Sequence record: PP216084
DNA length: 64,000 bases
Source of the DNA: Escherichia phage vB_EcoS_HZ_ZJUN2
Reading direction: 5' to 3' (one strand)
The translations under genes were made by a program, and so were the position numbers. The first letter of the stretch is position 1. Every line of letters starts with the position of its first letter. This document shows, piece after piece, positions 6,673 to 56,883 of the stretch. The notes beneath the pieces are model-generated. The model did not search any database. It was not told the origin of the DNA and worked only from the letters and a program-made list of their open reading frames with translations.

Positions 6673-7440
6673 TTATTCAGCAGCCGCAGCTTTTGCATCC
6701 AGTTTAGCACGCTTAGCGGCACCATCATAGTCCTTAGCAACCAGACCACGACGAGACAGCATAGATTTAACACCACGCTCAGACTTACCAGTTTTCTCAG
6801 CGATCTCAGCAACAGTCATGTTAACCAGATCCAGACCTTCTAACAGATCTTCACGAGTTTTAGCACTTGAAGTTTCCTGTACCGGCATAGCAGCGATACG
6901 ACCTTCACGAAGCAGGCTCAGAGCTTTACCACGGATCTGCTTAATATTGCGACCGAAGTGAGCAGCGATAGCTTCAATAGTAGCACCAGCAACAACCTGA
7001 TTAACAAAATCAGTTTCTTCATCCGGAGTGAAGGAACGAACAGCGGCAGCTTTTTCGGTTGGTTTAACAGAAGCGGTCATTTCCAGACTCAGGATCTTAC
7101 CCTGTACCTGTTTAGCACCGAACTGACCACCAGCTACAGCAGCAGCGATTTCAGCATAGGTATACTGACCAGCATGAGCGTTCAGGAAATCAACCAGCTC
7201 AGCTTCCTGCTCAGGAGTCCACGGGGATTTCTGTACTTCGTTAGCTTTCTGTACTTCAAAACCTTCTTTACGCAGTTTAGAGCCAACAGAGCGAGCAGTA
7301 ACATCTTTGCCAGTTTCAGCAGCTAGTTCAGCAGCAATAGCAGCTACTTGTTCTTGAGAGATTACAGCAACACCCAGAGCAGTGGCTTTTGCTTTCAGAG
7401 ACTCGGTTACACCTTCTACGTTCCAGTTCAGTTTAGACAT
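6673..7440 (-). CDS. putative DNA-binding protein with three internal repeats (possibly T5 D5-like)
   Basis: 255 aa, Ala-rich, three ~70-aa repeats each ending in an HTH-like segment (E/TIAA...G..K.V..K..SL); the D5 assignment is an inference. Confidence 0.55.
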   Translation of the reverse strand: MSKLNWNVEGVTESLKAKATALGVAVISQEQVAAIAAELAAETGKDVTARSVGSKLRKEGFEVQKANEVQKSPWTPEQEAELVDFLNAHAGQYTYAEIAAAVAGGQFGAKQVQGKILSLEMTASVKPTEKAAAVRSFTPDEETDFVNQVVAGATIEAIAAHFGRNIKQIRGKALSLLREGRIAAMPVQETSSAKTREDLLEGLDLVNMTVAEIAEKTGKSERGVKSMLSRRGLVAKDYDGAAKRAKLDAKAAAAE

Positions 7441-8215
7441 TATTATTTTTCTCCAATAGTTCTTTAATCGACAGGATTTCTATCCCATTCGTTTCGGCTT
7501 TCTTATAAGATGAGGAAGAACGTTTTGATTCATCCTCACAGATTAGGTATTTGACGTCTTTGGTAACGGATTTCTTAACCGTATACCCTAGACCTTCTAA
7601 ATAGTTTGTTGCATCCGTTCTATTTGCAAAATCTTGCAAAGATCCGGTAATACATACCGCGATTCCATTTGGCTTGGCAACTAATTCATCCGTAGTGATA
7701 ATATTAGCTTTAGTGCCCTTAATACCAGTTGAGAATTTCCACGGTAGTTCGATAACATCCTTGCCTTGTGGGGAATTTAGCCAGGCTTTGTAATTTTCTC
7801 CAGCCTTGCCGTCAGCCTTCACATCATGGAAGCTAGTGCAATTTTGGGATAATTTCTTTGCTGCAACCTCTCCAATTAGAGGGATTCCTAAAGAACCGAG
7901 AACTGAACCAAAGTCAATGTCTCCGCGAACTTTAGTATTTAATTCGCTAATTAACTTAGCGGCAACCTTGCTACCCACGGCTCTAACCAAATCTTCTTCG
8001 GTTAGGTAAAATAGTTCTGAAATCTTCGTCAGCTCCAGCTTCTCAATAGTTTTTGGGCCAAAGCCCTTTAACTTCATTTTTGAACAGAAGTTCTCAATTA
8101 ACTTGCTTGATTGCGCTGGACAGTTGGACTTATTACGACAGAATAATTGTCCGTTGACAAGATCTAGCTTAGAACCACAAGAGGGACATTGTGTTGGAAT
8201 TTCGATTTTCATCAA
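7433..8215 (-). CDS. NAD-dependent DNA ligase, C-terminal fragment (Zn finger/HhH/BRCT-like)
   Basis: CPSCGSKLDLVNGQLFCRNKSNCPAQ zinc finger at N-terminus, helix-hairpin-helix-like GFGPKTIEKL, sits downstream of the adenylation fragment. Confidence 0.7.
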   Translation of the reverse strand: MMKIEIPTQCPSCGSKLDLVNGQLFCRNKSNCPAQSSKLIENFCSKMKLKGFGPKTIEKLELTKISELFYLTEEDLVRAVGSKVAAKLISELNTKVRGDIDFGSVLGSLGIPLIGEVAAKKLSQNCTSFHDVKADGKAGENYKAWLNSPQGKDVIELPWKFSTGIKGTKANIITTDELVAKPNGIAVCITGSLQDFANRTDATNYLEGLGYTVKKSVTKDVKYLICEDESKRSSSSYKKAETNGIEILSIKELLEKNNNV

Positions 8216-8242
8216 ATTTCTTCCTTATCAATTTATATAAAT

Positions 8243-8271
8243 ATTATAGCAAGTATTTAAGCATTTAGCAA
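8243..8271 (-). promoter_or_regulatory. sigma70-type early promoter (minus strand) inside the ligase split
   Basis: -35 TTGCTA, 17-bp spacer, -10 TATAAT, followed by conserved leader ATTTATATAAATTGATAAGGAG and the ATG at 8215. Confidence 0.6.
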
Positions 8272-8414
8272 CTACAATTTTAATTAACTTTGCTTACCCT
8301 CGCCATAACTTTCTATCCCTCAACTGAATGATAATAGTATATACCTAAGCGGCGAAAATGTCAATAACCACTTTATAATTCCGATATGGTAGATGGGTAG
8401 CAAAGGGTTATGTA

Positions 8415-9389
8415 TTAATCGTATACTCGCTCTACTATGCACGGGATTACACCACCAGCACGAATCACTCGAATCTGGCAACCGATCTCTAGATCGAGAG
8501 AGTTAATATAATCAACGTTATTAAGAGTTGCTTTAACAATTGTAGCATCATCAATAATTACCGGTTCGAAATAACCAACTGGAGTTACTTTACCAGAAGC
8601 CCCTACCTGCCATTCAACTTTAGTAAGAGTTGTAATCTCGCCTTCTTCATCCTCTTTAATGGCGAAGGCTCCACGAGGGAATTTATTAGTCCAGCCTTCA
8701 CGGAAGAATTTGTTGTTGTCATTAATACGAACAACTTTACCGTCCGTCGGAATCCATTTAAAGAAGGAACGCACATTAACAACTGTTAAGAAGTTCTCAT
8801 TCTCTAGCCAAAGCATATCTTTTAAGTATGCTTCTGTAATACCTACAGATTCAGCAGAACATTGGATACCATAAGCAACAAAGATTAAACCGCCTTCTCC
8901 AATGCGTTGTACGAAAGCATCACTATCTTTGAGGTTAATAGCACCAGAGGCAAAGTTACGTTTATTTTCTACTTCTTTTGTAATTAGAACTTCACCAGTG
9001 ATTTGAGTAGGTACTTTTTGGGAAATCTTTTTAGGAATATTCAGCAATCTTACGTTGCTTGTGACATCATTCCCCAGAATACCATTACCACGAGTTAATG
9101 CTTGAACAAATTCACCGTTAATATATAATAGAGAAATTGCACAACCATCTAACTTATCAGTTTCTACCTGACCTAAAGGATTAAATGGTGGTTTATCCCC
9201 ACGATTATAATAAACTTTCTGTAAAGAATACATACGGTACAGATGTGGAATATCTCCCTTAGGCCCGATCTCTTCTTCTAGTGGGAAGCGTTTTACCAGG
9301 CAATCATACTCCTCATCAGAGATTAAAGACATGCCTTGATAATATGCTTCTTGACAACGCTTAATAAAGCCTCTTACATTATTCATCAT
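8415..9389 (-). CDS. NAD-dependent DNA ligase, N-terminal adenylation fragment
   Basis: KxDG adenylation motif (ETDKLDGCAISL) and LigA-like N-terminal domain. Confidence 0.8.
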   Translation of the reverse strand: MMNNVRGFIKRCQEAYYQGMSLISDEEYDCLVKRFPLEEEIGPKGDIPHLYRMYSLQKVYYNRGDKPPFNPLGQVETDKLDGCAISLLYINGEFVQALTRGNGILGNDVTSNVRLLNIPKKISQKVPTQITGEVLITKEVENKRNFASGAINLKDSDAFVQRIGEGGLIFVAYGIQCSAESVGITEAYLKDMLWLENENFLTVVNVRSFFKWIPTDGKVVRINDNNKFFREGWTNKFPRGAFAIKEDEEGEITTLTKVEWQVGASGKVTPVGYFEPVIIDDATIVKATLNNVDYINSLDLEIGCQIRVIRAGGVIPCIVERVYD

Positions 9390-16294: not shown

Positions 16295-16385
16295 GTAAAT
16301 TTTTCCCAAAGGTGCTATCAGTGTCTTTGAGCATAGAGAAAACCGAGCCAAAATGACTCGGTAATCAGAGTTCAGCTAATAAAAA

Positions 16386-16778
16386 TCATTTGTCATTTAG
16401 GCCTGGAACATAGATCCCAACACGGTTTAATTGTTCTTTAGCTTCTTTGAGAATATCTGGAGTGTATTCCCAAATATCATCTTCCACCTGTAAAAGATGG
16501 GGCGAACAACCGTCATCCGGCACACGACATATGGCCAAACCACGTGGATGGAATATAGAGAAGTTTAGGGCAACAATCAAGCCCATAGCAGACAATTCAT
16601 TCCAATCCAATTCCCATTCCCCGGCGTATCCAGACAGGAAAACACCAACACAGGGATCATCTGTTTGCTGCTCAGGAAAAGTGAAGGAGGCTTGTCTTAC
16701 CCCCAACCAACGTTGTAGCAGCTTTTCCGCACGCTTCACCAAACTAGGGTCAATCTGACGCCAAAATACTTGTTCCAT
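16386..16778 (-). CDS. hypothetical protein, tandem paralog A (130 aa)
   Basis: ORF track; clear similarity to adjacent ORF 16788-17216 (e.g. shared WxELDxMGL / FALN / GxxxPGL segments). Confidence 0.6.
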   Translation of the reverse strand: MEQVFWRQIDPSLVKRAEKLLQRWLGVRQASFTFPEQQTDDPCVGVFLSGYAGEWELDWNELSAMGLIVALNFSIFHPRGLAICRVPDDGCSPHLLQVEDDIWEYTPDILKEAKEQLNRVGIYVPGLNDK

Positions 16779-16787
16779 TCTGCCTCC

Positions 16788-17216
16788 TTAAGCAGTTAAA
16801 CCTGGGATCATATACCCGAAACGTCGAAGTTTCTGAATCCCCTCATTTACTTCTTCCGGTGAGTAAGACCAACCATAACGTTCATTAACTTGAAAACCAG
16901 GAGATTCACTAGTTTTATAGTTAACAACGAGGCGATGCTTAGCAGGCATAAACAGCTTATAGTTTAACGCAAAAACTAAGCCCATTTCATCTAACTCTTT
17001 CCAGCCGACAATCTCTTCAAGACCATCCTCTACCTGAACAATTAAACCAATACAGGGAGCCTCATCAATATCATCTTTAAAGGCAAAGGAGATTTCGTTA
17101 TTCTCACACCATATTTTCAAAGAGTTAATAGCCTCATTATACAGGCTAGCCGGGAGAGTACGCCAAAAGTTAACCAAAATTGGGTTAGCTTCTTTAGAGA
17201 ATACATTATTGAACAT
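16788..17216 (-). CDS. hypothetical protein, tandem paralog B (142 aa)
   Basis: ORF track; paralog of 16386-16778. Confidence 0.6.
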   Translation of the reverse strand: MFNNVFSKEANPILVNFWRTLPASLYNEAINSLKIWCENNEISFAFKDDIDEAPCIGLIVQVEDGLEEIVGWKELDEMGLVFALNYKLFMPAKHRLVVNYKTSESPGFQVNERYGWSYSPEEVNEGIQKLRRFGYMIPGLTA

Positions 17217-17218
17217 AT

Positions 17219-17725
17219 TTACACCTTAAATTGCTGTAAGGATTTACACATTTCAAGATCTGGGCTAAATTCTAGCATATAGCTAACAGCTTTTAAATCT
17301 TGAAGATTTATCCCAGTCCTACCGTTGACTATAACCGTTGGATACTGATACATCATAGCACCCGCATCATCAAGCACACACCAATGTTTGAGCTTATGCT
17401 TTTCAACGAAGCGAAGAACAGAATTACCCCTAGATAATCCACCCCCAGTAAAATCCGTTGTACCAAGAAAACGATCGATAAGACCTAATCCGGTCATAAT
17501 CCGAACGTTCTCCATCTCATTTCTAACAGAGAACCAAGATGATACTCCAACAATCATTATCGGAGAAAGACGAATAAAGTCCTGAAAAGCCTTGAGAAGC
17601 GGTTTGAAAACCCAGTCACTTCCAAAGAAAATCTTTTCATCATCAGGTGCATGATGGTGGGAGATGCTCGAATTGAGCACTCCATCAATGTCCAGAAAAA
17701 TAATTGGAGTATTACTTATTTCCAT
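17219..17725 (-). CDS. HAD-superfamily hydrolase (putative phosphatase/nucleotidase)
   Basis: N-terminal HAD motif I IIFLDIDGVLN. Confidence 0.6.
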   Translation of the reverse strand: MEISNTPIIFLDIDGVLNSSISHHHAPDDEKIFFGSDWVFKPLLKAFQDFIRLSPIMIVGVSSWFSVRNEMENVRIMTGLGLIDRFLGTTDFTGGGLSRGNSVLRFVEKHKLKHWCVLDDAGAMMYQYPTVIVNGRTGINLQDLKAVSYMLEFSPDLEMCKSLQQFKV

Positions 17726-17894
17726 TTTTGTTCCTTTCTAAGAACGTATCATACTCAACCGTATCAACATATATAACACCATAGTCATCGGATTTATAGT
17801 CCATTTCCCACAGCTCACAGCGATAGCACCAACTACCATCCGCCCATACAAATATATCATCGGGATGTGTATAAACAGATTTAACTATGGACAT
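17712..17894 (-). CDS. small hypothetical protein (60 aa), paralog pair member
   Basis: ORF track; DIFVWADGSWCYRCEL resembles DIFITESGTWCYRFAY in the neighbour. Confidence 0.45.
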   Translation of the reverse strand: MSIVKSVYTHPDDIFVWADGSWCYRCELWEMDYKSDDYGVIYVDTVEYDTFLERNKNGNK

Positions 17895-18070
17895 ATCTGT
17901 TTCTCCTCATCTCCAGAGGATAACCATATATTATCCGTAGTATAGATAATTTTATATGTGTTGCCTAATCTTTCTTTTACATTAGGAAATCTATAGGCAA
18001 ACCTATAACACCAAGTGCCAGACTCAGTTATAAAAATATCCCATTCATTATTTCTTGCTTCTCGACACAT
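17885..18070 (-). CDS. small hypothetical protein (61 aa), paralog pair member
   Basis: ORF track; paralog of 17712-17894. Confidence 0.45.
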   Translation of the reverse strand: MCREARNNEWDIFITESGTWCYRFAYRFPNVKERLGNTYKIIYTTDNIWLSSGDEEKQICP

Positions 18071-18866
18071 AAGGTCTACCCTCTAAATGAGCTTCTACAC
18101 GAGCAATAAAATCAGGGTCACTGAAAGCATCCACCGCACCTTTACTCCAGTAAGGGACACCACGTTCTTCTAGCTGGTACATCTCACTACGAGTCATACC
18201 TTGATAGCCCGGTTCCGCCGCTAGGGCACTATCGTAGTAGTTAACAACCATAAGTTTCGCAGCAGTCAAATTAAGAACAGGAAATAATTCCCAGTAGAAG
18301 TTAATTACTTGGTTAGAGCAACCAACCACAATGATCATATCTTGACTGGTAATACCATCAAAAACATTATACATTTCTGTGTATGCAGGAGCATGCTCCC
18401 CAAAGAATATTACATTAGGTTTAACCCATTTATAATCATCTGGATCAATAGACTTGTACCCTACATCAATAATCCGTTTATTGCTACTATTATAGCTATC
18501 AGCTACAACAACCTCTTTTAAATATCCATGAATGTGTAGAATATCACTATGTGGAACGCCAGCACGCTCAATAAGGTCATCAACGTTGGTAGTCAAGTTT
18601 ACTACTTGACCTGGATATTGTTTATACCATTCACCAATACGCAAATGCGCAAGATTGGGTTCAACAGTTTTTAGCTCTTCACGACGCTTGTTGTAAAACA
18701 TATGGGTTTTATGATAAAAATTACCACGAAAGGCGTGAATATTACATACTTCTTCTAGATCATAATCATCCCACAGTGCTTTACCACTAGCAGTATCAGT
18801 ACGAAAAGCTCGTACACCACTTTCAACACTCAAACCTGCACCGCTAATAACAATTAATCTACGCAC
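18048..18866 (-). CDS. Sir2-family (sirtuin-like) NAD-binding protein
   Basis: Sirtuin signature motifs GAGLSVESGVRAFR, TTNVDDL, HIHG, KPNVIFFGE, IVVGCS; no obvious CxxC...CxxC zinc ribbon. Confidence 0.7.
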   Translation of the reverse strand: MRRLIVISGAGLSVESGVRAFRTDTASGKALWDDYDLEEVCNIHAFRGNFYHKTHMFYNKRREELKTVEPNLAHLRIGEWYKQYPGQVVNLTTNVDDLIERAGVPHSDILHIHGYLKEVVVADSYNSSNKRIIDVGYKSIDPDDYKWVKPNVIFFGEHAPAYTEMYNVFDGITSQDMIIVVGCSNQVINFYWELFPVLNLTAAKLMVVNYYDSALAAEPGYQGMTRSEMYQLEERGVPYWSKGAVDAFSDPDFIARVEAHLEGRPYVSRSKK

Positions 18867-19060
18867 TATACGATTCCTCGCTTAAGTCCTTCGATAATAT
18901 CTCGGAGTAAAATTGCTTCCTCCTGGCGTACCTTTTCTTGCTTAATAAGCATATCCAATCCAGCAATACAACTAGTTACACCAGCATTATAACCAGAGTT
19001 CCATTGCTCAATGAGCATGTTTTCTATATTACTTTTTAGATTCGGCTTCGAGAATGCCAT
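18866..19060 (-). CDS. hypothetical protein (64 aa)
   Basis: ORF track. Confidence 0.4.
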   Translation of the reverse strand: MAFSKPNLKSNIENMLIEQWNSGYNAGVTSCIAGLDMLIKQEKVRQEEAILLRDIIEGLKRGIV

Positions 19061-19232
19061 AAAGTTTCTCCTCTAGTTCCATAACACGATTTTCATAAGA
19101 GGCACGCAACTTTTCAATTGCCAGCGCACGCACTGTAACCTCATTAGAATTAATAGCTAATTGGGCCAGGTCTTCTGTTTCCATACGTCCGTTGTAAATT
19201 AAGCGATATTTAAGATGTTTTACGTTTTTCAT
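19029..19232 (-). CDS. hypothetical protein (67 aa)
   Basis: ORF track. Confidence 0.4.
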   Translation of the reverse strand: MKNVKHLKYRLIYNGRMETEDLAQLAINSNEVTVRALAIEKLRASYENRVMELEEKLYGILEAESKK

Positions 19233-19441
19233 TCTTGTTCCTCAAACATTTCAATTTCTGCATTAGCAATAGAAAGGGCGGGCTCAGATAAGCACAATCC
19301 CGCCCTAGGATCAATCTTCACTTCGTCCATCCAAGTATTTACTAAACATAATTTAGTTATGTCCTCACGGAGAATGGAACCATATGCCCCAGAATCCATA
19401 ATAAAATAGATACGTTCTTTATCTACCTTGTGAACTCTCAT
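19229..19441 (-). CDS. hypothetical protein (70 aa)
   Basis: ORF track; promoter at 19470-19498 immediately upstream. Confidence 0.45.
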   Translation of the reverse strand: MRVHKVDKERIYFIMDSGAYGSILREDITKLCLVNTWMDEVKIDPRAGLCLSEPALSIANAEIEMFEEQE

Positions 19442-19469: not shown

Positions 19470-19498
19470 ATTATATATAAATTTTTGGCTGAAAGCAA
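19470..19498 (-). promoter_or_regulatory. sigma70-type early promoter (minus strand)
   Basis: -35 TTGCTT / 17 bp / -10 TATAAT plus AGATTTATAAATTTGATGGGAG leader. Confidence 0.55.
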
Positions 19499-19539
19499 AT
19501 AAAATAAAAGCCAGGTCGACTAGCAACCCGGCTTTTATT

Positions 19540-21366
19540 TTATTTAAGATTTAAGTGCTTTACTCTACCAAGTACTTCTTTTTGTTTCCCAGAATTGAAT
19601 GGTCTACTGCCAGGAGACCCAAGATACCCACAAACCCTACGTGTAACTTCTATATCTTCAGATCCACAACTAGGGCATACAAAACCACGTTCAGAGGCAA
19701 TAGACTCACCCATATATCCACAGTTAAAGCACTCATCAATAGGTATGTTAACACCAATATAGTGGCTGCATTCCAATCCCTTATCTACTACATATTCAAG
19801 AGCTTTAGGGAATTTTTTCATCTGCGGCAACTCTACAAAAGAAATATTACCACCATTAGCTATTTTAGTAAAATGAGCCTCGTACTCAAATTTAATATCT
19901 GGGGCTACTTTTTCCCTTACGTCTAAATGATGACTATTAGTAAGATACCCTTTATCAGTTAGCCAGGAGTATTCTGGGAATCTATGTTCTAGTAACTTAT
20001 TAAAGCGATTACATAGAGACTCACTAGGAGTAGCATACAGACTAAACCCAAGATTAGTCTCATTAGCCTTAATTTCACAACGATTTTTTAAGTGAGTAAG
20101 AACTTCTTCCGTAAATTCAATACAATCCCTATGAGTTTGTGGTAATCCAAACATTATTTGGCACATCTCATATACCCCAATATATCCGAGAGATACAGAA
20201 GATCTACCCTCAAAAATAGGCCAGACGTATTCCTCCGCACCCAAACGTACACCAAAACCTCCGTGCATATATAGAATAGGGGCTTGTTTAGCTTTTACTT
20301 TCTTCAGCCTACCCAAGAAAAAATCATGTGCTTCAAAAGCCTCATCTACATACTTATCCAGAATATCCCAGAAATCTTCAAAAACTCCATCCGCTTCTGC
20401 AGCAACCATAGGTAGATTAATAGATACTACACCAAGATTATTACGTCCTGCAACTTCGCCAGAAGGGATAGCGGATAAAAAACTACGACAACCCATAGGG
20501 GCTTTAAAATCGCCAGTAACAGCTACAACCTTCTCATAGCTTAAATAATCTGGATACATACGTGTAGCGGAACATTCAAGTGCTAGCTGTTTTATATCAT
20601 AGTTAGGATCCCCTGGATTTTTGTTTAATCCTTCTTTAACTGAGAATACTAATTTGGGGAAGATAGGGGTTGACTCAGCAGCTCCCAAACCTTTAATACG
20701 ATTTTGAAGAATGGCTTTTTGAATCATTCTTTCCTCCCACTCTTGTCCCAGACCAAAGCCCAGAGTAACAAAGGGAGTCTGCCCATTAGAGTTAAATAAC
20801 GAATTGGTTTCATACTCTAGAGCCTGGAATGCATCATAACATTCTTTTTCAGTAAGTTCAGTAGCATATACAGCAGCTTTTCTTTCATCCTTAAGCCAAC
20901 GTAGGCCACGCCCCAGATGTTTATTGTAGGACTTCCTAACATACGGAGCTAGAACTTCATCAATACGATCAATGGAAGTACCACCATACTGAGCACCTGA
21001 TACTTGAGCAATAATCTGAGCAGTAATCGCACATGCAGTAGTTATGGATTTAGGAGTTTCAATATTCGCATTACCAATTTTAGTGCCATTTTTCAACATA
21101 CCGCCTAGGTCTACTAAACAACAGTTAGTGTACCCCTGCGCCCTATAATCCATATCATGGATATGTATTTTACCTAGATTATGGGCGTCTAATAAATGTT
21201 TAGGTAATTCTTGTGATACTAAATACTTGTTGATTTCTCCAGCTAGTAAGTCCCTCTGCGTATGAAACATCTCGCTAGGTTTATTAGCATTATTATGCTG
21301 CAAGTCTTTGTCAGCAGTTAGAGTAAGTAAACCTTTGCAATTTTCAATTAGTTCATTTTCTGTCAT
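19540..21366 (-). CDS. nrdD: anaerobic ribonucleoside-triphosphate reductase (class III, NrdD)
   Basis: 608 aa; C-terminal glycyl-radical motif RRVCGYLGS with upstream Cys-rich CFNCGY...CPSCG zinc site. Confidence 0.9.
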   Translation of the reverse strand: MTENELIENCKGLLTLTADKDLQHNNANKPSEMFHTQRDLLAGEINKYLVSQELPKHLLDAHNLGKIHIHDMDYRAQGYTNCCLVDLGGMLKNGTKIGNANIETPKSITTACAITAQIIAQVSGAQYGGTSIDRIDEVLAPYVRKSYNKHLGRGLRWLKDERKAAVYATELTEKECYDAFQALEYETNSLFNSNGQTPFVTLGFGLGQEWEERMIQKAILQNRIKGLGAAESTPIFPKLVFSVKEGLNKNPGDPNYDIKQLALECSATRMYPDYLSYEKVVAVTGDFKAPMGCRSFLSAIPSGEVAGRNNLGVVSINLPMVAAEADGVFEDFWDILDKYVDEAFEAHDFFLGRLKKVKAKQAPILYMHGGFGVRLGAEEYVWPIFEGRSSVSLGYIGVYEMCQIMFGLPQTHRDCIEFTEEVLTHLKNRCEIKANETNLGFSLYATPSESLCNRFNKLLEHRFPEYSWLTDKGYLTNSHHLDVREKVAPDIKFEYEAHFTKIANGGNISFVELPQMKKFPKALEYVVDKGLECSHYIGVNIPIDECFNCGYMGESIASERGFVCPSCGSEDIEVTRRVCGYLGSPGSRPFNSGKQKEVLGRVKHLNLK

Positions 21367-33518: not shown

Positions 33519-34342
33519 ATGGGTAAATTACAAAAACAAATACTACCATATATAGATTATATTCGAGAAATTATAGAGTATAATCCTTATACCGGTAAAT
33601 TATTTTATAAGCCTAATAAATACAAGAATAAAACTTGGCACACCCTATATGCTGGGAGAGAGAGATATGTAGTAAGAACTCTGATGGGTATATCAGAGTT
33701 AGTTTGCTCTTAGATAACAAACCCACAATTATTTATGGACACCGAATAGCGTGGTTGCTACATTATGGTGAAGAGCCGCCTCATATGATCGACCATATAA
33801 ATACCATACCGTGGGATAACAGAATTATTAATTTAAGAGAGACAAATTTTAAGTTAAATAGAATTAATACTAATAAAACCATAGGTGTAGAACTCCTCCC
33901 AGAGGGTTTTGTATATAGCATTACATTAGATGGAAAGTTCTTCGTATCTCCTGGCTTCACCACTTTCGAACAAGCTAAAGGGGAAAGAGAAAAACTAGTA
34001 AATGGCTTATGTAACGCAGAAATTGGGAAGCAGACCAATATCCTAATAGACGATGTTAGAAATCTACCTGAAATGTCTATTATTTGTCGTACAGTTGTAT
34101 GTGCGCTAGAATTATCAGACGCGTTTAGTTTCACAGGCTCATACCTATTTATGGACTCAGATCTAGGAGATCCAGAGGTACAAGGAAAAGATTTATTAGA
34201 TCATATACTATTTTTAGGTCAAAGACCTTTAAAAGTGGTTTTAGTAACATCTAACCCCGTTGACGCAGAGTACATGAGAGGTACTCTTACATCTTATGGA
34301 TACAGAGAAAATCCCAATAGATTAGAATATGATCTATTTTAA
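33519..34342 (+). pseudogene. HNH homing endonuclease interrupted by a frameshift
   Basis: ORF 33519-33713 matches the N-terminal module of the paralogs at 4588, 54339 and 57830; ORF 33635-34342 in another frame carries the HNH core HRIAWLLHYGEEPPHMIDHINTIPWDNRIINLRETN. Confidence 0.6.
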
Positions 34343-35523: not shown

Positions 35524-35746
35524 ATATTCATAAATTAGGGAACAGCGAGCCGATTACGCTGAATGCAGAATCCCAACCGGAGCGCATTGAATAGAGTCGG
35601 TGGGTTAGTTGTAAAACTAGTACACAGGGGGCGGCAATCCCGGTTAGTGGCTAGAACGTGTAAAATGAGGCGTCTGAAACCTCTCCCCTAAACTCTTCTC
35701 TAATTTATAAATAGTGGGGTGTGGAAATCACTTATGTAGTAACACT

Positions 35747-35818
35747 GCCGATCTAGTATAAACGGTATTATCAAGCCGTAACTGGTGGAAGATGTAGGTT
35801 CGAATCCTACGATCGGTA
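35747..35818 (+). tRNA. tRNA-like element (anticodon not resolved; no encoded CCA)
   Basis: Canonical T-arm GTAGG-TTCGAAT-CCTAC and 7-bp acceptor pairing GCCGATC/GATCGGT; D and anticodon arms could not be folded cleanly by eye. Confidence 0.35.
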
Positions 35819-35857
35819 AGAACTGGATAACTGGTGCTTTTAACGTAAAAGCTTCCG

Positions 35858-35930
35858 AGGTTAGTTGCGCACTGCCTAAACCACGCGGTAGTTGGTTCCA
35901 GACTAACCAACCAGTCTGCTGAATAGTTTT
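35858..35930 (+). terminator. hairpin + T-run (terminator or processing site)
   Basis: GTTGGTT-CCAGACT-AACCAAC hairpin followed by TTTTATT. Confidence 0.3.
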
Positions 35931-36319
35931 ATTACGATTTAACTATGTCCAGGCTAAAGAAGAACTTTAGAAGGTATTCTAGGTAGTGAAGTTTTTCCTC
36001 CATATCGGAGTAGTTTTTCAAGCTACCAACAAAGTGGGAAATGCTGACATGAGAGATGTCACTAATGGTGCACAATAGCACAGGTAATTCGCGATAACTC
36101 CTGTTGAGTAGCAGCAAAAGGCGGGAAGTCATGACCCCAAGCCTAACCGAGTCCTCAATATACCGCAGGACATAACCACTAAGTCACCCTGACTTAAACT
36201 GGAAAATAATAGACGTTACTGTATTTTGTCTTGAAATACTTAATGAGTGAGACTTATGACTCTCCCGGTATCGTCTGTATTTTTAAGAGTTTTTACGAGA
36301 GTTCTTAAAAATACTTAAA

Positions 36320-36391
36320 CGGGGTGTAGTCTAAGGGAGAGGCAGGAGTCTTCTAAATTCCTTTATGCAGGTTCGAATCCTGTCACCTCGG
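36320..36391 (+). tRNA. tRNA-Arg (anticodon UCU), CCA encoded
   Basis: Manual cloverleaf: acceptor CGGGGTG/CACCTCG, D-stem GTCT/AGGC, anticodon stem GGAGT/ATTCC with loop CTTCTAA, T-arm GCAGG-TTCGAAT-CCTGT, then G-CCA. Confidence 0.6.
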
Positions 36392-36428
36392 CCAATTTTA
36401 TTAACTGTAACTAAAACAAAGGAAATAT

Positions 36429-37376
36429 ATGTTTGCTACTAAAAACACTAAAGAACTGACTTATGAGCAAAAATTGATGCGTAATATCAAACGTTGGGGT
36501 ATTGGTGTTGCAGTTGGTTTGGTAGGTTTAGTTCTGGCCCTTAACTCCTATACTGTGGTTCAAGACGGTACTGTTAAAACCCAGACTTTCCTGGGTAAAG
36601 TTGACCCTAGCCCAGTATTACCAGGCTTTCATATTGTAAATCCTTTTGCTTCTTTCGATACTTTTAGTACTAAAGATATTGCTGTAAAATTAGATAAACT
36701 TCAGGTTCCTAGCCAGGATAAGTTTAAATCCACTGTTGACCTGACTGTTATGTTGCAGTTTGATGGTTCTAAGGCACCGATCAACCGTATTAATGCAGGT
36801 ACTCAGGATCAGGCGTTAGACAAATATGTAACTGAAAAATTACTGTCTACCATCCGTGAGTTTGGTAAGTCTGTACCTAAAGCACAAGATTTGTTTGATG
36901 CTAAAATTCAAGCACAATTACAAACTGCAATTCAACAGGAAGTTGAAGAGTATGCACGCCCTTATGGTTACACAGTTAAGCAAGTGTTCCTTCAGGATAT
37001 CACATTACCACCGGTAATTATGGAACAGGTACAGAATACCAAAGTTCGTGAAGAACAAGTTAATGCTGCGAAAGCTGAATTGGCTCGTGTTGAACAAGAA
37101 GCACAGCAGAAGGTTAAACAAGCAGAAGCAGATCGTGAAGCTCGTAACAACCAAGCTATTGCAAACGAACGTGATGCAGATGCTAAACTGTATGCAGCTA
37201 AGAAAGAAGCCGAAGCTAACGCCGCTCTGCAACGTACTATTACTCCTGAGATGATTCGCTGGAAACAACTAGAAGTTGAAATGACTCGTGCTCAGAAGTA
37301 TCAAGGTGGTGTGCCGCAAACAGTAGTTGGCACTGGGTACGATGGCCGGATGATTATGGATATGCGTAACAAGTAA
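36429..37376 (+). CDS. SPFH/band-7 (prohibitin/HflK-like) membrane protein
   Basis: N-terminal TM helix (WGIGVAVGLVGLVLAL), SPFH-like core, long charged coiled-coil C-terminal region (EQEAQQKVKQAEADREARNNQAIANERDADAKLYAAKKEAEANA). Confidence 0.65.
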   Translation: MFATKNTKELTYEQKLMRNIKRWGIGVAVGLVGLVLALNSYTVVQDGTVKTQTFLGKVDPSPVLPGFHIVNPFASFDTFSTKDIAVKLDKLQVPSQDKFKSTVDLTVMLQFDGSKAPINRINAGTQDQALDKYVTEKLLSTIREFGKSVPKAQDLFDAKIQAQLQTAIQQEVEEYARPYGYTVKQVFLQDITLPPVIMEQVQNTKVREEQVNAAKAELARVEQEAQQKVKQAEADREARNNQAIANERDADAKLYAAKKEAEANAALQRTITPEMIRWKQLEVEMTRAQKYQGGVPQTVVGTGYDGRMIMDMRNK

Positions 37377-37400
37377 TTCCCACACGTAATATTCGAAGTA

Positions 37401-37440
37401 AGCCCTGTGTTCCCTGGAGAGCGCAGGGCTTTTCTGTTTT
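37401..37440 (+). terminator. rho-independent terminator
   Basis: AGCCCTG...CGCAGGGCT hairpin + TTTCTGTTTT. Confidence 0.6.
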
Positions 37441-37602
37441 AAGGTAGAGGATAAGTGTGTCTCTTTGGTCACTCAGCTATGACAAATACTTTACACTATA
37501 TCACATTGAAAATCAAGTGGGGATAACAATTTTGGGGTCTATCCACTTACCTGCTACCATTAAGCATCCTGTTATTTTCCTCTAAAAAGTTAAAAAATTC
37601 AA

Positions 37603-37631
37603 TTGCTTGAATGCTAAATTCTCTGTATAAT
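37603..37631 (+). promoter_or_regulatory. sigma70-type early promoter
   Basis: -35 TTGCTT / 17 bp / -10 TATAAT. Confidence 0.55.
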
Positions 37632-37661
37632 ATATTTATAAATTTGAGAGAGGAATCTAGT

Positions 37662-38180
37662 ATGACTGTTGATGAACTAACAGAACATCTCTTATCTAGA
37701 GGGTTTGATACAGATAAGTATCATTGCTGGTTAAGCCAGGAAGGATGGCTAACAGTCCCGTTGTATGACTTCTCTGGGATGTTGAGAGGCTATCAAACTT
37801 ATAATCCTTCTGCTCCAAAAGGTCATGGTAAGTGTCCCTTTGAAGCTAAATATTTTACTTATTCTACTACCCAGTGTGTATGGGGATTAGAAACTCTCAA
37901 TGGAGATGAAAAAGTAGTATTGATTGCTGAATCTGTATTTAAGGCAGTTGCGTTACATAACGCTGGTTATCCAGCCCTGGCAATGTTGGGTTCTTCCCCC
38001 GGAAAAGCATTATTAAAGCAATTGAAATTATTACCTTTTAAATTGGTAGCTGTAGGAGATAATGATCCTGCGGGTGAAAAATTTGCTAGAAAATTAAACG
38101 GCTTTGTTTCTCCTGTAGATGTAGATGAGATGTCTACCGAAAACTTGAAAAATTTTCTTGCTATGAAGCTAAATTTCTAA
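37662..38180 (+). CDS. TOPRIM-domain protein (about 172 aa)
   Basis: Track ORF 37611-38180 trimmed to ATG 37662 downstream of the promoter; TOPRIM-like VVLIAESVFKA...LVAVGDNDPAGEKFA. Confidence 0.55.
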   Translation: MTVDELTEHLLSRGFDTDKYHCWLSQEGWLTVPLYDFSGMLRGYQTYNPSAPKGHGKCPFEAKYFTYSTTQCVWGLETLNGDEKVVLIAESVFKAVALHNAGYPALAMLGSSPGKALLKQLKLLPFKLVAVGDNDPAGEKFARKLNGFVSPVDVDEMSTENLKNFLAMKLNF

Positions 38181-38186
38181 TATAAT
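38158..38186 (+). promoter_or_regulatory. sigma70-type promoter overlapping the 3' end of the TOPRIM gene
   Basis: -35 TTGCTA / 17 bp / -10 TATAAT; drives the two following tRNAs. Confidence 0.5.
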
Positions 38187-38200
38187 ATATTTATAAATTC

Positions 38201-38286: not shown

Positions 38287-38295
38287 CCAAATTCT

Positions 38296-38370: not shown

Positions 38371-38396
38371 CCAACTTAATTAGAAAGTAGTAAACT

Positions 38397-40810: not shown

Positions 40811-40815
40811 CCAAT

Positions 40816-55498: not shown

Positions 55499-56362
55499 AT
55501 GAAAAAAGAATTTAATGTACATAAAACTCTAGTAGTGCCGGATGACGCTAATTTGTTTTTCGTTGGTGATATTCATGGATGCAATGATTTGCTAGAAGAT
55601 GCGTTGAAATTAGCTGGGTATAATAGCAAAAAAGATTGCGTAGTATGTGTCGGAGACTTAATAGACCGAGGCACACAAAACCTACAAGTTTTAGCCAAAT
55701 TCCTGTATAATCCACGTTTTATCAGTGTACGTGGTAATCATGACCAATTTATGATTGTGGGAGATTGGGCTAATTGGATGTATAATGGTGGTATGTGGGC
55801 CATGAATGAACTAGATGCAGACACAATTAAAAATATTGCCGAAGATATGGCTGAAAAAATGCCAGTATTCCTAACTGTTAGACATCGTGGTAAGAAATTT
55901 GGTGTTGTTCACGGTGGCGTACCTTTTACGTACAAAGAATGTGGTAATGAAGTAGAAACCCCAGTATGGGATAATCTTATTGCACAAGTAGAAGCAGCTA
56001 AGGAAGACCCACATGACCATCCTGGATACCATATTGAACCATATTTATGGGATCGAGATGTAATCCAAGAAATAGGCTTCTACTTGTCCAAAAATGGTGA
56101 GGAACACCCGTATTTCCAGCGTTATGCAGGATTTAAAGAAAAATACATGGTAGAAGTGCCAGAAGTTAAAGGTGTAGATTTCGTGTTTCACGGGCATACT
56201 GGAGTTCCTTACCCACTTCTTTATAAGAACCGTGTTTATCTTGATACTGGCGGTGTTTTCAACGGGCAGTTGACGGTTGCGCAAGTTAACGATGAAACTG
56301 GCAAAATCACCACATTTACCACAGACAAAATTGATAGCTGCGGTGTACAGAGGATTCTTTAA
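55499..56362 (+). CDS. Ser/Thr protein phosphatase-like metallophosphoesterase (calcineurin-like)
   Basis: Motifs GDIHG, GDLIDRG, GNHD; track ORF 55487 trimmed to ATG 55499. Confidence 0.8.
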   Translation: MKKEFNVHKTLVVPDDANLFFVGDIHGCNDLLEDALKLAGYNSKKDCVVCVGDLIDRGTQNLQVLAKFLYNPRFISVRGNHDQFMIVGDWANWMYNGGMWAMNELDADTIKNIAEDMAEKMPVFLTVRHRGKKFGVVHGGVPFTYKECGNEVETPVWDNLIAQVEAAKEDPHDHPGYHIEPYLWDRDVIQEIGFYLSKNGEEHPYFQRYAGFKEKYMVEVPEVKGVDFVFHGHTGVPYPLLYKNRVYLDTGGVFNGQLTVAQVNDETGKITTFTTDKIDSCGVQRIL

Positions 56363-56883
56363 TGAAAGTTCGCTTTTGGAGTGACCTCCACTTGGGGCAT
56401 GCAAATATTACTAAATTCAGACCAATCTTCTCTACTATGGAAGAGCATGACGAATTTATTATGGACACTATCACATCCGTGAAGGATAAGCGTACAGTAT
56501 TCTATATTTTAGGAGACGCATTTGTATCTAGAAATGGTTTGGAGAAGTTCGAAAAACTCTTTGGTAATGTTAGAACTACGTTAGTTTTGGGAAACCACGA
56601 CTTAGAACGAGAAGGATTATCTTTCAAAGACTTAATAGGGATTGTAGATAACGTACAATCCCTAGTTAAGTATAAAAACTTCTGGCTTTCCCATGCCCCA
56701 ATACACCATGGGGAGCTGAGAGGTAAGAAGAACTTACATGGGCATACTCACTTTGAGCTAATGGGGGATCCTCGTTATATTAACGTTTGTGTCGAGTATG
56801 CAAAATCACCAGTACGTCTGGAAGACATCATGAGTGGTAAGTATACCTCACATGATAAAACTAGCTGGATGTTAAATGTCTGA
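56362..56883 (+). CDS. second metallophosphoesterase (calcineurin-like)
   Basis: Motifs SDLHLGH, ILGDAF, LGNHD, HGHTH; start overlaps previous stop. Confidence 0.65.
   Translation: MKVRFWSDLHLGHANITKFRPIFSTMEEHDEFIMDTITSVKDKRTVFYILGDAFVSRNGLEKFEKLFGNVRTTLVLGNHDLEREGLSFKDLIGIVDNVQSLVKYKNFWLSHAPIHHGELRGKKNLHGHTHFELMGDPRYINVCVEYAKSPVRLEDIMSGKYTSHDKTSWMLNV

What the first reader, a model, noticed from the sequence alone, without database searches (positions are those of the whole stretch)
16386..18866. Sir2-like protein flanked by a HAD hydrolase and two tandem paralog pairs
ORF 18048-18866 has the sirtuin motifs (GAGxS...FR, TTNVDDL, HG, VIFFGE, VVGCS) but no obvious zinc ribbon. It sits in an operon with a HAD-type hydrolase (IIFLDIDGVLN) and two sets of tandemly duplicated small genes (16386/16788 and 17712/17885). 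Sir2 domains are NAD-consuming enzymes that feature in bacterial immunity; a phage-borne copy next to a phosphatase could act on NAD/ADP-ribose metabolism or as counter-defence. Tandem duplication suggests diversifying selection.
Basis: partly seen in the sequence, partly recalled or inferred. Interest (0 to 1): 0.6.

Follow-up and report, generated by a model that had tools for sequence, protein, structure and literature searches.

The report
T5 phage sirtuin–phosphatase early operon
This is the known, conserved early-gene block T5.102–T5.107 of T5-like phages: a zinc-less CobB-type sirtuin, an RNA-repair-type HAD phosphatase and two pairs of unknown paralogs. It was already predicted in print to be an NAD-dependent RNA-end repair module but has never been tested.

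Summary
The window is a T5-like phage, and 16386-18866 (minus strand) holds the orthologs of T5.107-T5.102.

- **Sir2:** a real sirtuin (Pfam E 6e-25; AlphaFold pLDDT 91; closest sequence and fold match is E. coli CobB, then Af-Sir2 and SIRT5). Every catalytic and NAD-binding residue is invariant in 50 phage homologs, including the class III Y-x-x-R anion pocket. All four zinc cysteines are lost.
- **HAD_SAK_2 phosphatase:** Pfam E 8e-20, catalytic motifs intact.
- **DUF7415 pair:** 32% identical, a confidently predicted fold with no solved relative.
- **Small pair:** two 60-aa proteins, both phrog_5116.

The block is the 3' part of a nine-gene, tightly overlapping unit with a conserved promoter and flanking terminators.

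All six genes are under strong purifying selection (dN/dS 0.04-0.2), not diversifying selection. The sirtuin matches no defence-system model.

The sirtuin-HAD neighbourhood in T5-like phages was described by Iyer et al. 2022 as a predicted Tpt1/KptA-like NAD-dependent RNA-repair system. I confirmed the supporting contexts.

New here:
- DUF7415 is the steadiest sirtuin partner in Demerecviridae.
- T5-likes also carry cREC and a metallophosphoesterase, but no RNA ligase or kinase.

No experiments exist.

The parts
19499..19543 (-). Terminator-like hairpin (20-bp stem) ending nrdD; upstream boundary of the unit
   Evidence: T5 annotates a terminator at the equivalent place. Nearly invariant in T5 and IrisVonRoten.
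19470..19498 (-). Sigma-70-type promoter of the operon: -35 TTGCTT (19498-19493), 17-nt spacer, -10 TATAAT (19475-19470)
   Evidence: T5 annotates a promoter here. The sequence is invariant in three phages. No transcript data are available.
19229..19441 (-). 70-aa gene (phrog_20147), function unknown; first gene of the unit; homolog lies directly upstream of the sirtuin in Klebsiella phage Sugarland
19029..19232 (-). 67-aa gene, ortholog of T5.101 (phrog_5236), function unknown
18866..19060 (-). 64-aa gene (phrog_5827), function unknown; absent from T5, present in IrisVonRoten
18048..18866 (-). Zinc-less class III-like sirtuin, ortholog of T5.102 (272 aa, GTG start)
   Evidence: Pfam SIR2 E 5.9e-25. 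CobB is the best PDB match by sequence (1.3e-17 for the single sequence; 5.8e-31 for the profile) and by fold (Foldseek E 8e-18, TM 0.84). AF2 pLDDT 91. Invariant residues: G9 A10 G11 S13, F21 R22, Y58 R61, N94 D96, H113 G114, F154 F155 E157, G182 S184, N209.
17885..18070 (-). 61-aa gene, ortholog of T5.103 (phrog_5116); the variable copy of the small paralog pair
   Evidence: Missing in IrisVonRoten and Sugarland. dN/dS 0.11.
17712..17894 (-). 60-aa acidic gene, ortholog of T5.104 (phrog_5116), with the WxxGSWCYR motif; the conserved copy
   Evidence: Homolog in Sugarland (45% by tblastn) and a 53%-identical gene in S114. pI 4.35.
17219..17725 (-). HAD_SAK_2 phosphatase, ortholog of T5.105 (168 aa)
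   Evidence: PF18143 E 7.7e-20, full-length match. Catalytic motifs conserved. dN/dS 0.04.
16788..17216 (-). DUF7415 protein a, ortholog of T5.106 (142 aa, acidic)
16386..16778 (-). DUF7415 protein b, ortholog of T5.107 (130 aa, acidic); paralog of the preceding gene
   Evidence: PF24187 E 1.3e-31. 32% identical to copy a, E 3e-21.
16342..16362 (-). Terminator-like hairpin; downstream boundary of the unit
   Evidence: T5 annotates a terminator at the equivalent place.
33635..34342 (+). Candidate distal partner (inferred, not linked): cREC 'cyclic-phosphate processing receiver' domain (residues 135-219), here in one ORF with an HNH domain; homolog of T5.084
   Evidence: Pfam cREC_REC E 7.6e-13 and HNH_3 E 1.8e-11. 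T5.084 cREC E 3.4e-15. cREC sits just upstream of the sirtuin in Vequintavirinae, directly in V5 or with only the kinase gene between in SSE121 and Ro1.
56362..56880 (+). Candidate distal partner (inferred, not linked): calcineurin-like phosphoesterase, ortholog of T5.034
   Evidence: 93% identical to T5.034, which hits Pfam Metallophos (E 4e-6). Weakly similar to the phosphoesterase in the Ro1 sirtuin neighbourhood (E 0.005).

Best explanation
The block is an early-expressed module of T5-like phages built around an NAD+-consuming sirtuin. The sirtuin most likely transfers ADP-ribose onto an anionic, phosphate-type acceptor at damaged RNA ends, which is Tpt1/KptA-like chemistry on a sirtuin scaffold. 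It probably does not act as a housekeeping protein deacetylase.

Proposed steps:
1. Host ribonucleases cut tRNA or mRNA, leaving 2',3'-cyclic phosphate ends. Inferred.
2. A cyclic-phosphate-opening enzyme (the phage's cREC, encoded elsewhere) or a phosphoesterase converts these ends to monoesters. Inferred.
3. The sirtuin binds NAD+, and an oxygen of the substrate attacks C1' of the nicotinamide ribose. The catalytic His then activates the ribose 2'-OH to resolve the adduct, releasing nicotinamide and an ADP-ribose (cyclic) phosphate. Inferred; what is shown is only that all residues needed for sirtuin chemistry are invariant.
4. The HAD_SAK_2 phosphatase removes a terminal phosphate, either from the RNA end or from the ADP-ribose-phosphate by-product. 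Inferred.
5. Sealing is left to a host ligase, since T5-likes have no RNA ligase of their own. Inferred.

The two acidic DUF7415 paralogs and the small WCYR proteins are obligate-looking partners of unknown role. Their acidity suggests protein-binding regulators or adaptors, possibly a DUF7415 heterodimer, rather than RNA binders.
For: Shown here:
- The sirtuin is catalytically intact and under purifying selection.
- It keeps the class III Y-x-x-R anion-binding motif in every lineage examined, from T5 to KVP40. It has changed CobB's peptide-binding V-Y-P loop to V-I-N and lost the zinc site.
- It belongs to one tight phage clade with the Vequintavirinae sirtuins (56-69% identity in the pairs compared). 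Those sit in the order T4-type RNA ligase - cREC - AAA_33 kinase - sirtuin, with a metallophosphoesterase nearby, as found in Ro1; V5 and SSE121 show matching parts of it.
- In T5-likes it is operonic with a HAD of the 'Swiss-army-knife RNA repair' family. That linkage survives rearrangement: in Erwinia phage KEY the order is HAD - T5.100-like - sirtuin.
- T5 and this window also encode a cREC and a calcineurin-like phosphoesterase, plus 21 or more tRNAs.
- In Aeromonas phage Ah1 the HAD homolog, T4 Rnl1 and a DUF7415 C-domain protein lie within 2.6 kb, and the DUF7415 gene overlaps the ligase stop codon.

Published prediction of exactly this role for the SP15/T5-type neighbourhood: PMC9503650, section 3.7.3.

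From established chemistry (my knowledge): the two steps of Tpt1 (attack on NAD+ C1'', then attack by the ribose 2''-OH) parallel the two steps of sirtuin deacylation.
Against: - No sirtuin has ever been shown to act on RNA or on a phosphate ester, and no experiment exists for any phage sirtuin.
- T5 and the window lack any Rnl1-type RNA ligase or AAA_33 kinase, so the pathway would be incomplete without host enzymes.
- The HAD is dispensable in whole lineages that keep the sirtuin: Sugarlandvirus, the Slocum-like contig and metagenomic contig L019.
- Linkage within one virus family is partly explained by shared ancestry.
- The sirtuin (pI 5.7), both DUF7415 proteins (pI 4.6-4.7) and T5.104 (pI 4.35) are acidic, which is not typical of RNA-binding proteins.
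- A HAD homolog also pairs with a NARP1-like NAD-rebuilding pair in Serratia phage Kashira. That would fit a small-molecule ADP-ribose-phosphate substrate as well as an RNA one.
- DUF7415 C-domain genes in T4-like Klebsiella phages sit by nrdD/nrdG, not by RNA enzymes.
Confidence: 0.4

Rival explanations
1. The sirtuin is a genuine NAD+-dependent protein lysine deacylase (CobB/SIRT5-like, perhaps a desuccinylase). Early in infection it would strip acyl marks from host or phage proteins to retune metabolism or activate enzymes. The neighbouring genes would be unrelated early accessory genes or protein-level regulators of it.
For: - The closest relatives by sequence and by fold are all characterised deacylases: E. 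coli CobB, Af-Sir2 and SIRT5.
- Every residue used for deacylation is invariant: catalytic His113, N94/D96, FGE-type loop F154-F155-x-E157, and the Y58/R61 pair that binds succinyl or malonyl carboxylates in class III enzymes.
- The acidic partner proteins would suit protein-protein regulation.
- This reading was proposed for the KVP40-like phage sirtuin (PMC5107563).
Against: - It falls far below every NCBIfam CobB equivalog cut-off (best 101 bits against a cut-off of 243).
- The zinc module ligands are lost, and the V-Y-P peptide-binding loop reads V-I-N.
- It recurs next to RNA-end-processing enzymes in three different phage groups.
- The hosts already have CobB.
Confidence: 0.27
2. The sirtuin acts on small molecules or as an ADP-ribosyltransferase/NADase in the NAD-centred arms race. 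It could destroy or modify ADP-ribose-derived immune signals, or modify a host defence protein. The HAD would then dephosphorylate an ADP-ribose-phosphate product so that it can be recycled.
For: - In Serratia phage Kashira a HAD_SAK_2 homolog overlaps by 4 nt a Prs-like + NAMPT-like pair, the gene signature of NARP1 ADP-ribose-to-NAD+ recycling.
- A T5-like phage of the BASEL collection (TrudiRoth, Bas30) carries the NAD+-rebuilding NARP3 pair (PMC13464706).
- The unit is transcribed from a promoter that T5 annotates and that is conserved; that this is an early promoter is my own knowledge of T5.
- Small acidic partners resemble typical anti-defence inhibitors.
Against: - No PADLOC defence-type Sir2 model is matched, and the fold is nearest to deacylases rather than NADases.
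- A free NADase would hurt a phage that depends on an NAD+-dependent DNA ligase.
- The Kashira arrangement is rare (3 records) and has no sirtuin nearby.
- There is no Macro, NADAR, Nudix or SLOG partner in the operon.
Confidence: 0.15
3. The genes are functionally unrelated early accessory genes that merely share a syntenic 'slot' between nrdD and the origin-binding helicase gene in Demerecviridae. On this view the apparent module is inheritance, not function.
For: - In every Demerecviridae-like locus examined whose flanks are visible, the block sits between nrdD/phoH and the origin-binding helicase gene.
- Content varies: HAD, DUF7415, T5.100 and the small genes each come and go.
- The sirtuin shows a mosaic history relative to its neighbours.
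Against: - Sirtuin-DUF7415 adjacency persists when DUF7415 identity has fallen to 19-25%.
- HAD-sirtuin linkage survives a change of gene order in KEY.
- HAD and a DUF7415 domain recur together near an RNA ligase in an unrelated T4-like phage.
- Overlapping stop/start codons indicate co-translation.
Confidence: 0.13

Closest known systems
T5 genes T5.102-T5.107 and the 'sirtuin + Swiss-army-knife HAD' phage neighbourhood typified by Escherichia phage SP15 (Iyer, Burroughs, Anantharaman, Aravind 2022, PMC9503650)
   Same: Orthologous. DNA is 92-97% identical over the block in the phages listed, and gene order matches T5 gene for gene. SP15 itself carries a 92%-identical DUF7415 protein (P0004). 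It has the same sirtuin clade and the same HAD family.
   Different: Nothing essential differs. This window has different small genes upstream (no T5.100). The publication's text, as far as I could search it, mentions only the sirtuin and HAD, not the DUF7415 pair or the small paralogs.
E. coli CobB / human SIRT5 (class III sirtuin deacylases)
   Same: Same fold (TM 0.84 to CobB). Same NAD-binding and catalytic residues and the same Y-x-x-R motif.
   Different: Identity is only about 25%, below all NCBIfam equivalog cut-offs. There are no zinc ligands, V-Y-P reads V-I-N, and there is an extra C-terminal ~60 residues. The genomic context is RNA-end enzymes rather than metabolism.
Vequintavirinae (rV5/SSE121/Ro1) sirtuin neighbourhood: RNA ligase 1 - cREC - AAA_33 kinase - sirtuin
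   Same: The sirtuins are 58-66% identical to the window's, as close as those of the sister genus Epseptimavirus. cREC and metallophosphoesterase homologs also exist in T5 and the window.
   Different: In T5-likes these partners are scattered, the RNA ligase and kinase are absent, and the HAD, DUF7415 and phrog_5116 genes take their place next to the sirtuin.
Tpt1/KptA RNA 2'-phosphotransferase
   Same: Proposed functional analogy only: NAD+-dependent removal of a phosphate monoester through an ADP-ribosylated intermediate, in an RNA-repair gene context (PMC9503650).
   Different: An unrelated fold: ART superfamily versus Rossmann-type sirtuin. There is no sequence similarity, and the activity is untested.
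Defence-associated SIR2 NADases (ThsA, DSR1/DSR2, SIR2-HerA, SIR2-pAgo)
   Same: Same superfamily and the same cofactor.
   Different: No match to any PADLOC model. No SLOG, HerA, pAgo or sensor partner. It is phage-encoded, and its nearest structures are deacylases.

Membership tests
Sirtuin (SIR2, PF02146) superfamily | Profile match above the curated threshold over the whole catalytic domain | tested here: met
   88.7 bits against a cut-off of 24, profile positions 1-178 of 180.
Sirtuin (SIR2, PF02146) superfamily | Rossmann fold with GAGxS, FR, (T/Q)N(V/I)D, catalytic HG, and GxS motifs | tested here: met
   All are invariant in 50 homologs. The AF2 model superposes on CobB.
Sirtuin (SIR2, PF02146) superfamily | Zinc-binding small domain with four Cys ligands | tested here: not met
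   The protein has only C41 and C183. The CobB zinc-ligand positions align to non-Cys residues. The sheet of the small domain is still predicted.
Sirtuin (SIR2, PF02146) superfamily | NAD+-dependent catalysis | not testable with these tools
   Needs an enzyme assay.
CobB / class III protein deacylase | NCBIfam equivalog or subfamily score cut-off | tested here: not met
   Best is NF001753 at 100.9 bits against a cut-off of 243; NF040867 CobB scores 90.9 against 320.
CobB / class III protein deacylase | Y-x-x-R motif that binds acidic acyl groups | tested here: met
   Y58/R61 align to CobB Y92/R95; the 6RXS Y92A chain confirms the register. Invariant in the clade.
CobB / class III protein deacylase | V-x-P peptide-backbone binding loop after the GxS strand | tested here: not met
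   CobB G-T-S-G-H-V-Y-P aligns to phage G-C-S-N-Q-V-I-N. V187 is invariant and I188 nearly so, but there is no Pro.
CobB / class III protein deacylase | Lysine deacylase activity | not testable with these tools
   Needs peptide assays.
Phage sirtuin-centred predicted RNA-repair system, type 3 (SP15-like; PMC9503650) | Sirtuin of the distinct proteobacterial-phage clade | tested here: met
   94% identical to T5.102. 58-69% identical to the T5-like and V5-like sirtuins compared.
Phage sirtuin-centred predicted RNA-repair system, type 3 (SP15-like; PMC9503650) | Conserved adjacency to a Swiss-army-knife-type HAD phosphatase | tested here: met
   HAD_SAK_2 lies two small genes downstream in the same overlapping operon. 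It is also linked in KEY, My1 and S114.
Phage sirtuin-centred predicted RNA-repair system, type 3 (SP15-like; PMC9503650) | No adjacent Macro domain (which distinguishes it from sirtuin-Macro toxin-antitoxin pairs) | tested here: met
   No Macro hit in any of the nine operon proteins.
Phage sirtuin-centred predicted RNA-repair system, type 3 (SP15-like; PMC9503650) | Action on RNA 2'/3'-phosphate ends | not testable with these tools
   This is a prediction only, in the literature as well.
HAD_SAK_2 (PF18143) phosphatases | Profile match above threshold and the HAD catalytic motifs (DxD nucleophile, Ser/Thr, basic residue, DD) | tested here: met
   72.1 bits against a cut-off of 27.5, positions 1-138 of 139. 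D12-x-D14, S62/S63, R99 and D119-D120 are conserved.
Defence-associated SIR2 NADases (Thoeris ThsA, DSR, SIR2-HerA, SIR2-pAgo) | Match to defence-system SIR2 models and presence of a sensor or partner domain | tested here: not met
   Zero PADLOC hits at E<=0.01 for all nine proteins. It is a single-domain protein.
Tpt1/KptA 2'-phosphotransferase | ART-superfamily fold | tested here: not met
   The fold is Rossmann-type sirtuin. Only a functional analogy is proposed.
DUF7415 (PF24187) | Profile match above threshold | tested here: met
   109 and 120.8 bits against a cut-off of 27. The family has only 55 cluster representatives in 1.84 billion proteins. No PDB fold relative and no paper mentions it.

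The most novel reading that the evidence does not exclude
The zinc-less class III-like sirtuin, the two DUF7415 paralogs (a fold with no solved relative) and the WCYR mini-proteins would form a Demerecviridae-specific complex. In it, a sirtuin uses NAD+ on a non-protein, phosphate-bearing substrate: an RNA end or an ADP-ribose/nucleotide phosphate. That would be the first sirtuin shown to act on nucleic acid. The DUF7415 heterodimer would be a new kind of substrate adaptor or regulator.
Probability: 0.25. Interest if true: 0.75.

Novelty: already known. Interest (0 to 1): 0.33.

Why it matters
If the published prediction is right, phage sirtuins would extend sirtuin chemistry from acyl-lysine to RNA phosphate ends. 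T5, a classic and tractable phage, would then be a ready test bed with cheap knock-outs and assays.

The block also shows that about half of a conserved, constrained NAD-linked operon still has no fold or function assignment: the DUF7415 pair and the phrog_5116 proteins.

In practical terms, database labels in this region are unreliable. The HAD is propagated as a second 'Sir2', and DUF7415 is labelled 'exonuclease' or 'tail tube protein'.

As a discovery from this window, though, it adds little. The genes, their conservation and the leading hypothesis are already in the literature.

Tried and rejected
- **Defence or counter-defence Sir2:** no PADLOC hit for any operon protein.
- **Diversifying selection:** rejected by dN/dS of 0.04-0.2.
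- **Internal repeat in DUF7415:** Pfam reports two stretches, but hhalign of the N-half against the C-half gave only 3% probability. Left unresolved.
- **The 118-aa gene upstream of the sirtuin in KEY and Slocum as a divergent cREC:** rejected. KEY's is a T5.100 homolog, Slocum's is unrelated, and neither has a cREC signal.
- **RNA ligase or kinase hidden in T5 or the window:** none found by annotation or by tblastn with Rnl1 and AAA_33 seeds. Rnl2 and RtcB were not searched because I had no seed sequences.
- **HAD relatives in the PDB by sequence:** none at E<=1.
- **HAD-NARP1 link as a general rule:** rejected as rare, 3 records.
- **DUF7415-RNA ligase link as a general rule:** not general. 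In T4-like Klebsiella phages the C-domain gene lies by nrdD/nrdG.
- **Rfam scan and repeat scan of the operon and flanks:** nothing significant.
- **Literature:** no experimental study of any phage sirtuin and no paper naming DUF7415.


Full report
**Source and observation**

The window is a T5-like phage (Tequintavirus). The region 16000-19500 matches 530 phage records, the best at 95-97% identity, and matches T5 itself at 92%.

They are the orthologs of T5.107 to T5.102, in the same order.

It is also coding sequence under constraint. Pairwise dN/dS against T5 and phage IrisVonRoten is 0.04-0.2 for every gene.

**Anatomy of the unit**

The finding is the 3' two-thirds of a nine-gene unit running from 19441 to 16386.
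- Six of the eight gene junctions overlap by 1-32 nt, and two have gaps of 2 and 9 nt.
- Upstream, the nrdD gene ends in a 20-bp-stem hairpin (19543-19499).
- Directly after it comes a promoter: -35 TTGCTT at 19498-19493, a 17-nt spacer, and -10 TATAAT at 19475-19470. T5 annotates a promoter at this place, and the sequence is invariant in T5, IrisVonRoten and the window.
- Downstream, a second hairpin (16362-16342) closes the unit where T5 annotates a terminator.
- The three small upstream genes are mosaic. The window lacks T5.100 but has two small genes that T5 lacks: a homolog of the gene found upstream of the sirtuin in Klebsiella phage Sugarland, and a 64-aa gene shared with IrisVonRoten.

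**The sirtuin (18048-18866)**

- Pfam SIR2 matches at E 5.9e-25 over the whole profile.
- The best solved relative by sequence is E. coli CobB: 1S5P at E 1.3e-17, or 5.8e-31 with a 50-sequence clade profile.
- An AlphaFold model built on that alignment is confident (pLDDT 91, pTM 0.90).
- By Foldseek its nearest structures are CobB (E 8e-18, TM 0.84), Archaeoglobus Sir2 and SIRT5. All are deacylases, and none is a defence NADase.
- Across 50 phage homologs of 55-86% identity, every residue of the NAD pocket and catalytic centre is invariant: G9 A10 G11 S13, F21 R22, N94 D96, H113 G114, F154 F155 E157, G182 S184, N209.
- The class III Y-x-x-R motif is also invariant. Phage Y58/R61 align to CobB Y92/R95, and the register is confirmed by the Y92A mutant chain 6RXS. 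'FYNxRR' is present in every lineage I examined, out to KVP40.

Three things differ from CobB:
- The four zinc cysteines are gone; the protein has only C41 and C183.
- CobB's V-Y-P substrate loop reads V-I-N.
- The score is far below every NCBIfam CobB equivalog cut-off.

No PADLOC defence model is matched by this or any other protein of the operon.

**The HAD (17219-17725)**

It matches PF18143, 'HAD domain in Swiss Army Knife RNA repair proteins', at E 7.7e-20 over the full profile. The nucleophile motif DxDGV, the SSW serine, a GGGxxR motif and the DD motif are conserved in homologs as distant as 29-40% identity. No solved structure is detectable by sequence.

RefSeq's 'Sir2 (NAD-dependent deacetylase) x2' in T5-like genomes is an annotation artefact. 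The second 'Sir2' is this HAD, picked up through phrog_18062.

**The DUF7415 pair (16386-16778 and 16788-17216)**

- The two proteins are 32% identical (E 3e-21), and both match PF24187.
- By tblastn the family is found in 525 phage records with 1037 places, about two per record. The duplication is therefore old and stably kept.
- An exhaustive HMMER search of 1.84 billion cluster representatives finds only 55 at E<=1e-3. The C-terminal ~65 residues also occur alone and, once, fused to a thymidylate-kinase-like domain.
- Both proteins are acidic, pI 4.6-4.7.
- No paper in the searchable library mentions the family.

**The small pair (17712-17894 and 17885-18070)**

Both match phrog_5116 and share a WxxG[ST]WCYR motif. 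T5.104 is the conserved copy, with a homolog in Sugarland (45% by tblastn) and a 53%-identical gene in S114. T5.103 is missing in IrisVonRoten and Sugarland.

**Comparative context**

Within Demerecviridae-like phages, the locus lies between nrdD/phoH and the origin-binding helicase gene wherever the flanks are visible. It always holds the sirtuin, while its partners vary.

| Phage or contig | Gene order at the locus |
|---|---|
| Tequintavirus, Epseptimavirus | sirtuin - one or two small genes - HAD - DUF7415 x2 |
| Pectobacterium phage My1 | sirtuin - 62 aa - HAD - 90 aa - DUF7415 |
| Sugarland | sirtuin - small gene - DUF7415 x2, no HAD |
| Slocum-like contig | sirtuin - one DUF7415, no HAD |
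| Two metagenomic contigs (L018, L019) | sirtuin - one gene - DUF7415 |
| Erwinia phage KEY | HAD - T5.100-like - sirtuin, no DUF7415 |

So DUF7415 follows the sirtuin even when its identity to the window's copy is only 19-25%. It is the steadier partner, which the published description does not mention.

Outside this family:
- The sirtuin clade continues into Vequintavirinae. There it sits in the order metallophosphoesterase ... T4-type RNA ligase - cREC - AAA_33 kinase - sirtuin - ATP DNA ligase, as found in Ro1; V5 and SSE121 show matching parts of it.
- Those sirtuins are 58-66% identical to the window's. That is as close as the sister genus Epseptimavirus (61%), although the HAD is 88% and DUF7415 is 74-75% identical across that genus boundary. 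The sirtuin gene thus has a mosaic history, and one biochemical function probably applies in both contexts.
- T5 and the window also carry a cREC (T5.084, E 3.4e-15; window 33635-34342, E 7.6e-13) and a calcineurin-like phosphoesterase (T5.034; window 56362-56880) elsewhere in the genome.
- They have no RNA ligase or polynucleotide kinase, either by annotation or by tblastn with Rnl1 and AAA_33 seeds.
- In the T4-like Aeromonas phage Ah1, a HAD homolog, T4 Rnl1 and a 77-aa DUF7415 C-domain protein lie within 2.6 kb. The last of these starts on the ligase stop codon.

Two counter-examples temper this:
- In T4-like Klebsiella phages the DUF7415 C-domain gene lies by nrdD/nrdG.
- In Serratia phage Kashira the HAD homolog overlaps a Prs-like/NAMPT-like pair, the NARP1 signature, with no sirtuin nearby. 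That arrangement is rare.

**What is already known**

- T5.102 has been annotated as 'putative Sir2-like protein' since the T5 genome record.
- A 2016 paper noted zinc-less phage sirtuins, listed T5 among their carriers, and proposed deacetylation of host enzymes (PMC5107563).
- Iyer, Burroughs, Anantharaman and Aravind (2022, PMC9503650, section 3.7.3) defined a distinct phage sirtuin clade with three neighbourhood types. [quoted passage not shown] They proposed that these sirtuins act like KptA in removing 2'-phosphates during RNA repair.
- SP15 is a T5-like phage carrying a 92%-identical DUF7415 protein.
- I found no experimental work on any phage sirtuin.

**Mechanism and rivals**

I favour the published reading at about 0.4. 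The sirtuin would use NAD+ to ADP-ribosylate a phosphate-type acceptor at damaged RNA ends. The HAD would trim a terminal phosphate on the RNA or on the ADP-ribose-phosphate by-product. cREC and the phosphoesterase would act from elsewhere in the genome, and a host ligase would seal the break.

What is shown:
- an intact and constrained sirtuin active site;
- an invariant anion pocket;
- an altered peptide loop;
- membership of the same clade as sirtuins embedded among RNA ligase, cREC and kinase genes;
- operonic linkage to an RNA-repair-family HAD.

What is inferred is every chemical step.

The main weaknesses are the absence of a phage RNA ligase or kinase, the dispensability of the HAD in several lineages, and the acidity of the sirtuin and its partners.

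The rivals, with my estimates:
- a true CobB/SIRT5-like protein deacylase, 0.27;
- a small-molecule or ADP-ribosyl-transfer role in the NAD arms race, 0.15;
- mere synteny of unrelated early genes, 0.13.

The active-site residues I examined (catalytic His, NAD pocket, Y-x-x-R) do not separate the first two, because Tpt1-like and deacylase chemistry would use the same catalytic residues. Only context and the changed substrate loop favour the RNA model.

**Verdict**

The finding is accurate as an observation and ordinary as a discovery. It is a known, conserved T5 block whose leading functional hypothesis is already published but untested.

The residual interest lies in three points: the DUF7415 pair as the constant, structurally orphan partner of the sirtuin; the scattered cREC and phosphoesterase genes; and the fact that a tractable model phage could settle whether a sirtuin can work on RNA.

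Noticed in passing
window 33635-34342 (+): A single 235-aa ORF carries an HNH_3 homing-endonuclease domain (residues 35-69) and a cREC 'cyclic-phosphate processing receiver' domain (residues 135-219) in frame. T5.084 is a stand-alone 105-aa cREC, and the window has no start codon at the equivalent position. This is either a real fusion or a homing-endonuclease insertion that captured the cREC start.
   Followed up: partly
window 17219-17725 and 16386-17216; public records: Database labels here are wrong or unsupported. RefSeq/PHROG annotation calls the HAD a second 'Sir2 (NAD-dependent deacetylase)', because phrog_18062 matches HAD residues 77-168. DUF7415 genes are called 'exonuclease', 'Phage exonuclease (ACLAME 70)' or 'tail tube protein' in several records.
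   Followed up: yes
L011 (Serratia phage Kashira) 5001-8221: A HAD_SAK_2 homolog overlaps by 4 nt a Prs-like gene, which is followed by a NAMPT-family gene. This is the gene signature of the NARP1 ADP-ribose-to-NAD+ pathway. It lies next to a tRNA cluster with no sirtuin nearby, and hints that this HAD family may act on ADP-ribose phosphates. The arrangement is rare (3 records).
   Followed up: partly
L012 (Aeromonas phage Ah1) 4968-7529: The gene order is td - HAD_SAK_2 homolog - DUF4326 - DenA - T4-type RNA ligase 1 - 77-aa DUF7415 C-domain protein, which starts on the ligase stop codon. This is an independent co-location of two of the T5 block's families with an RNA ligase.
   Followed up: partly
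window 18048-18866 compared with L016, L003, L005, L008: The sirtuin is no closer to the sister genus Epseptimavirus (61%) than to Vequintavirinae (58-66%). The adjacent HAD (88%) and DUF7415 genes (74-75%) do follow the genus relationship. This suggests exchange of the sirtuin gene between phage groups, or faster evolution of it.
   Followed up: partly
window 18866-19441; L001 5922-6528: The small genes upstream of the sirtuin are mosaic among close relatives. T5 has T5.100, whose homolog sits next to the sirtuin in Erwinia phage KEY. The window lacks it and instead has a 70-aa gene shared with IrisVonRoten and with Klebsiella phage Sugarland, and a 64-aa gene shared with IrisVonRoten.
   Followed up: partly
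window 35746-45915 (+); 7436-9386 (-): There are 21 tRNA genes in a 10-kb cluster. There is also a split NAD+-dependent DNA ligase (ligA/ligB orthologs, 96-98% identical to T5.116/117). The phage therefore depends on NAD+ for replication while also encoding an NAD+-consuming sirtuin.
   Followed up: no
window 16386-18070: The products of the function-unknown genes downstream of the sirtuin are mostly acidic and Trp-rich: the DUF7415 proteins have pI 4.6-4.7 with 4-5 Trp, and T5.104 has pI 4.35 with 3 Trp in 60 aa. T5.103 is milder (pI 5.25, 3 Trp). This is more typical of protein-binding inhibitors or adaptors than of nucleic-acid binders.
   Followed up: no
P0182 (metagenomic protein): This is the one fusion found of a DUF7415 domain (residues 50-93) with a thymidylate-kinase-like P-loop kinase domain (residues 283-460). 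It is a possible functional hint linking DUF7415 to nucleotide or polynucleotide phosphate chemistry.
   Followed up: no
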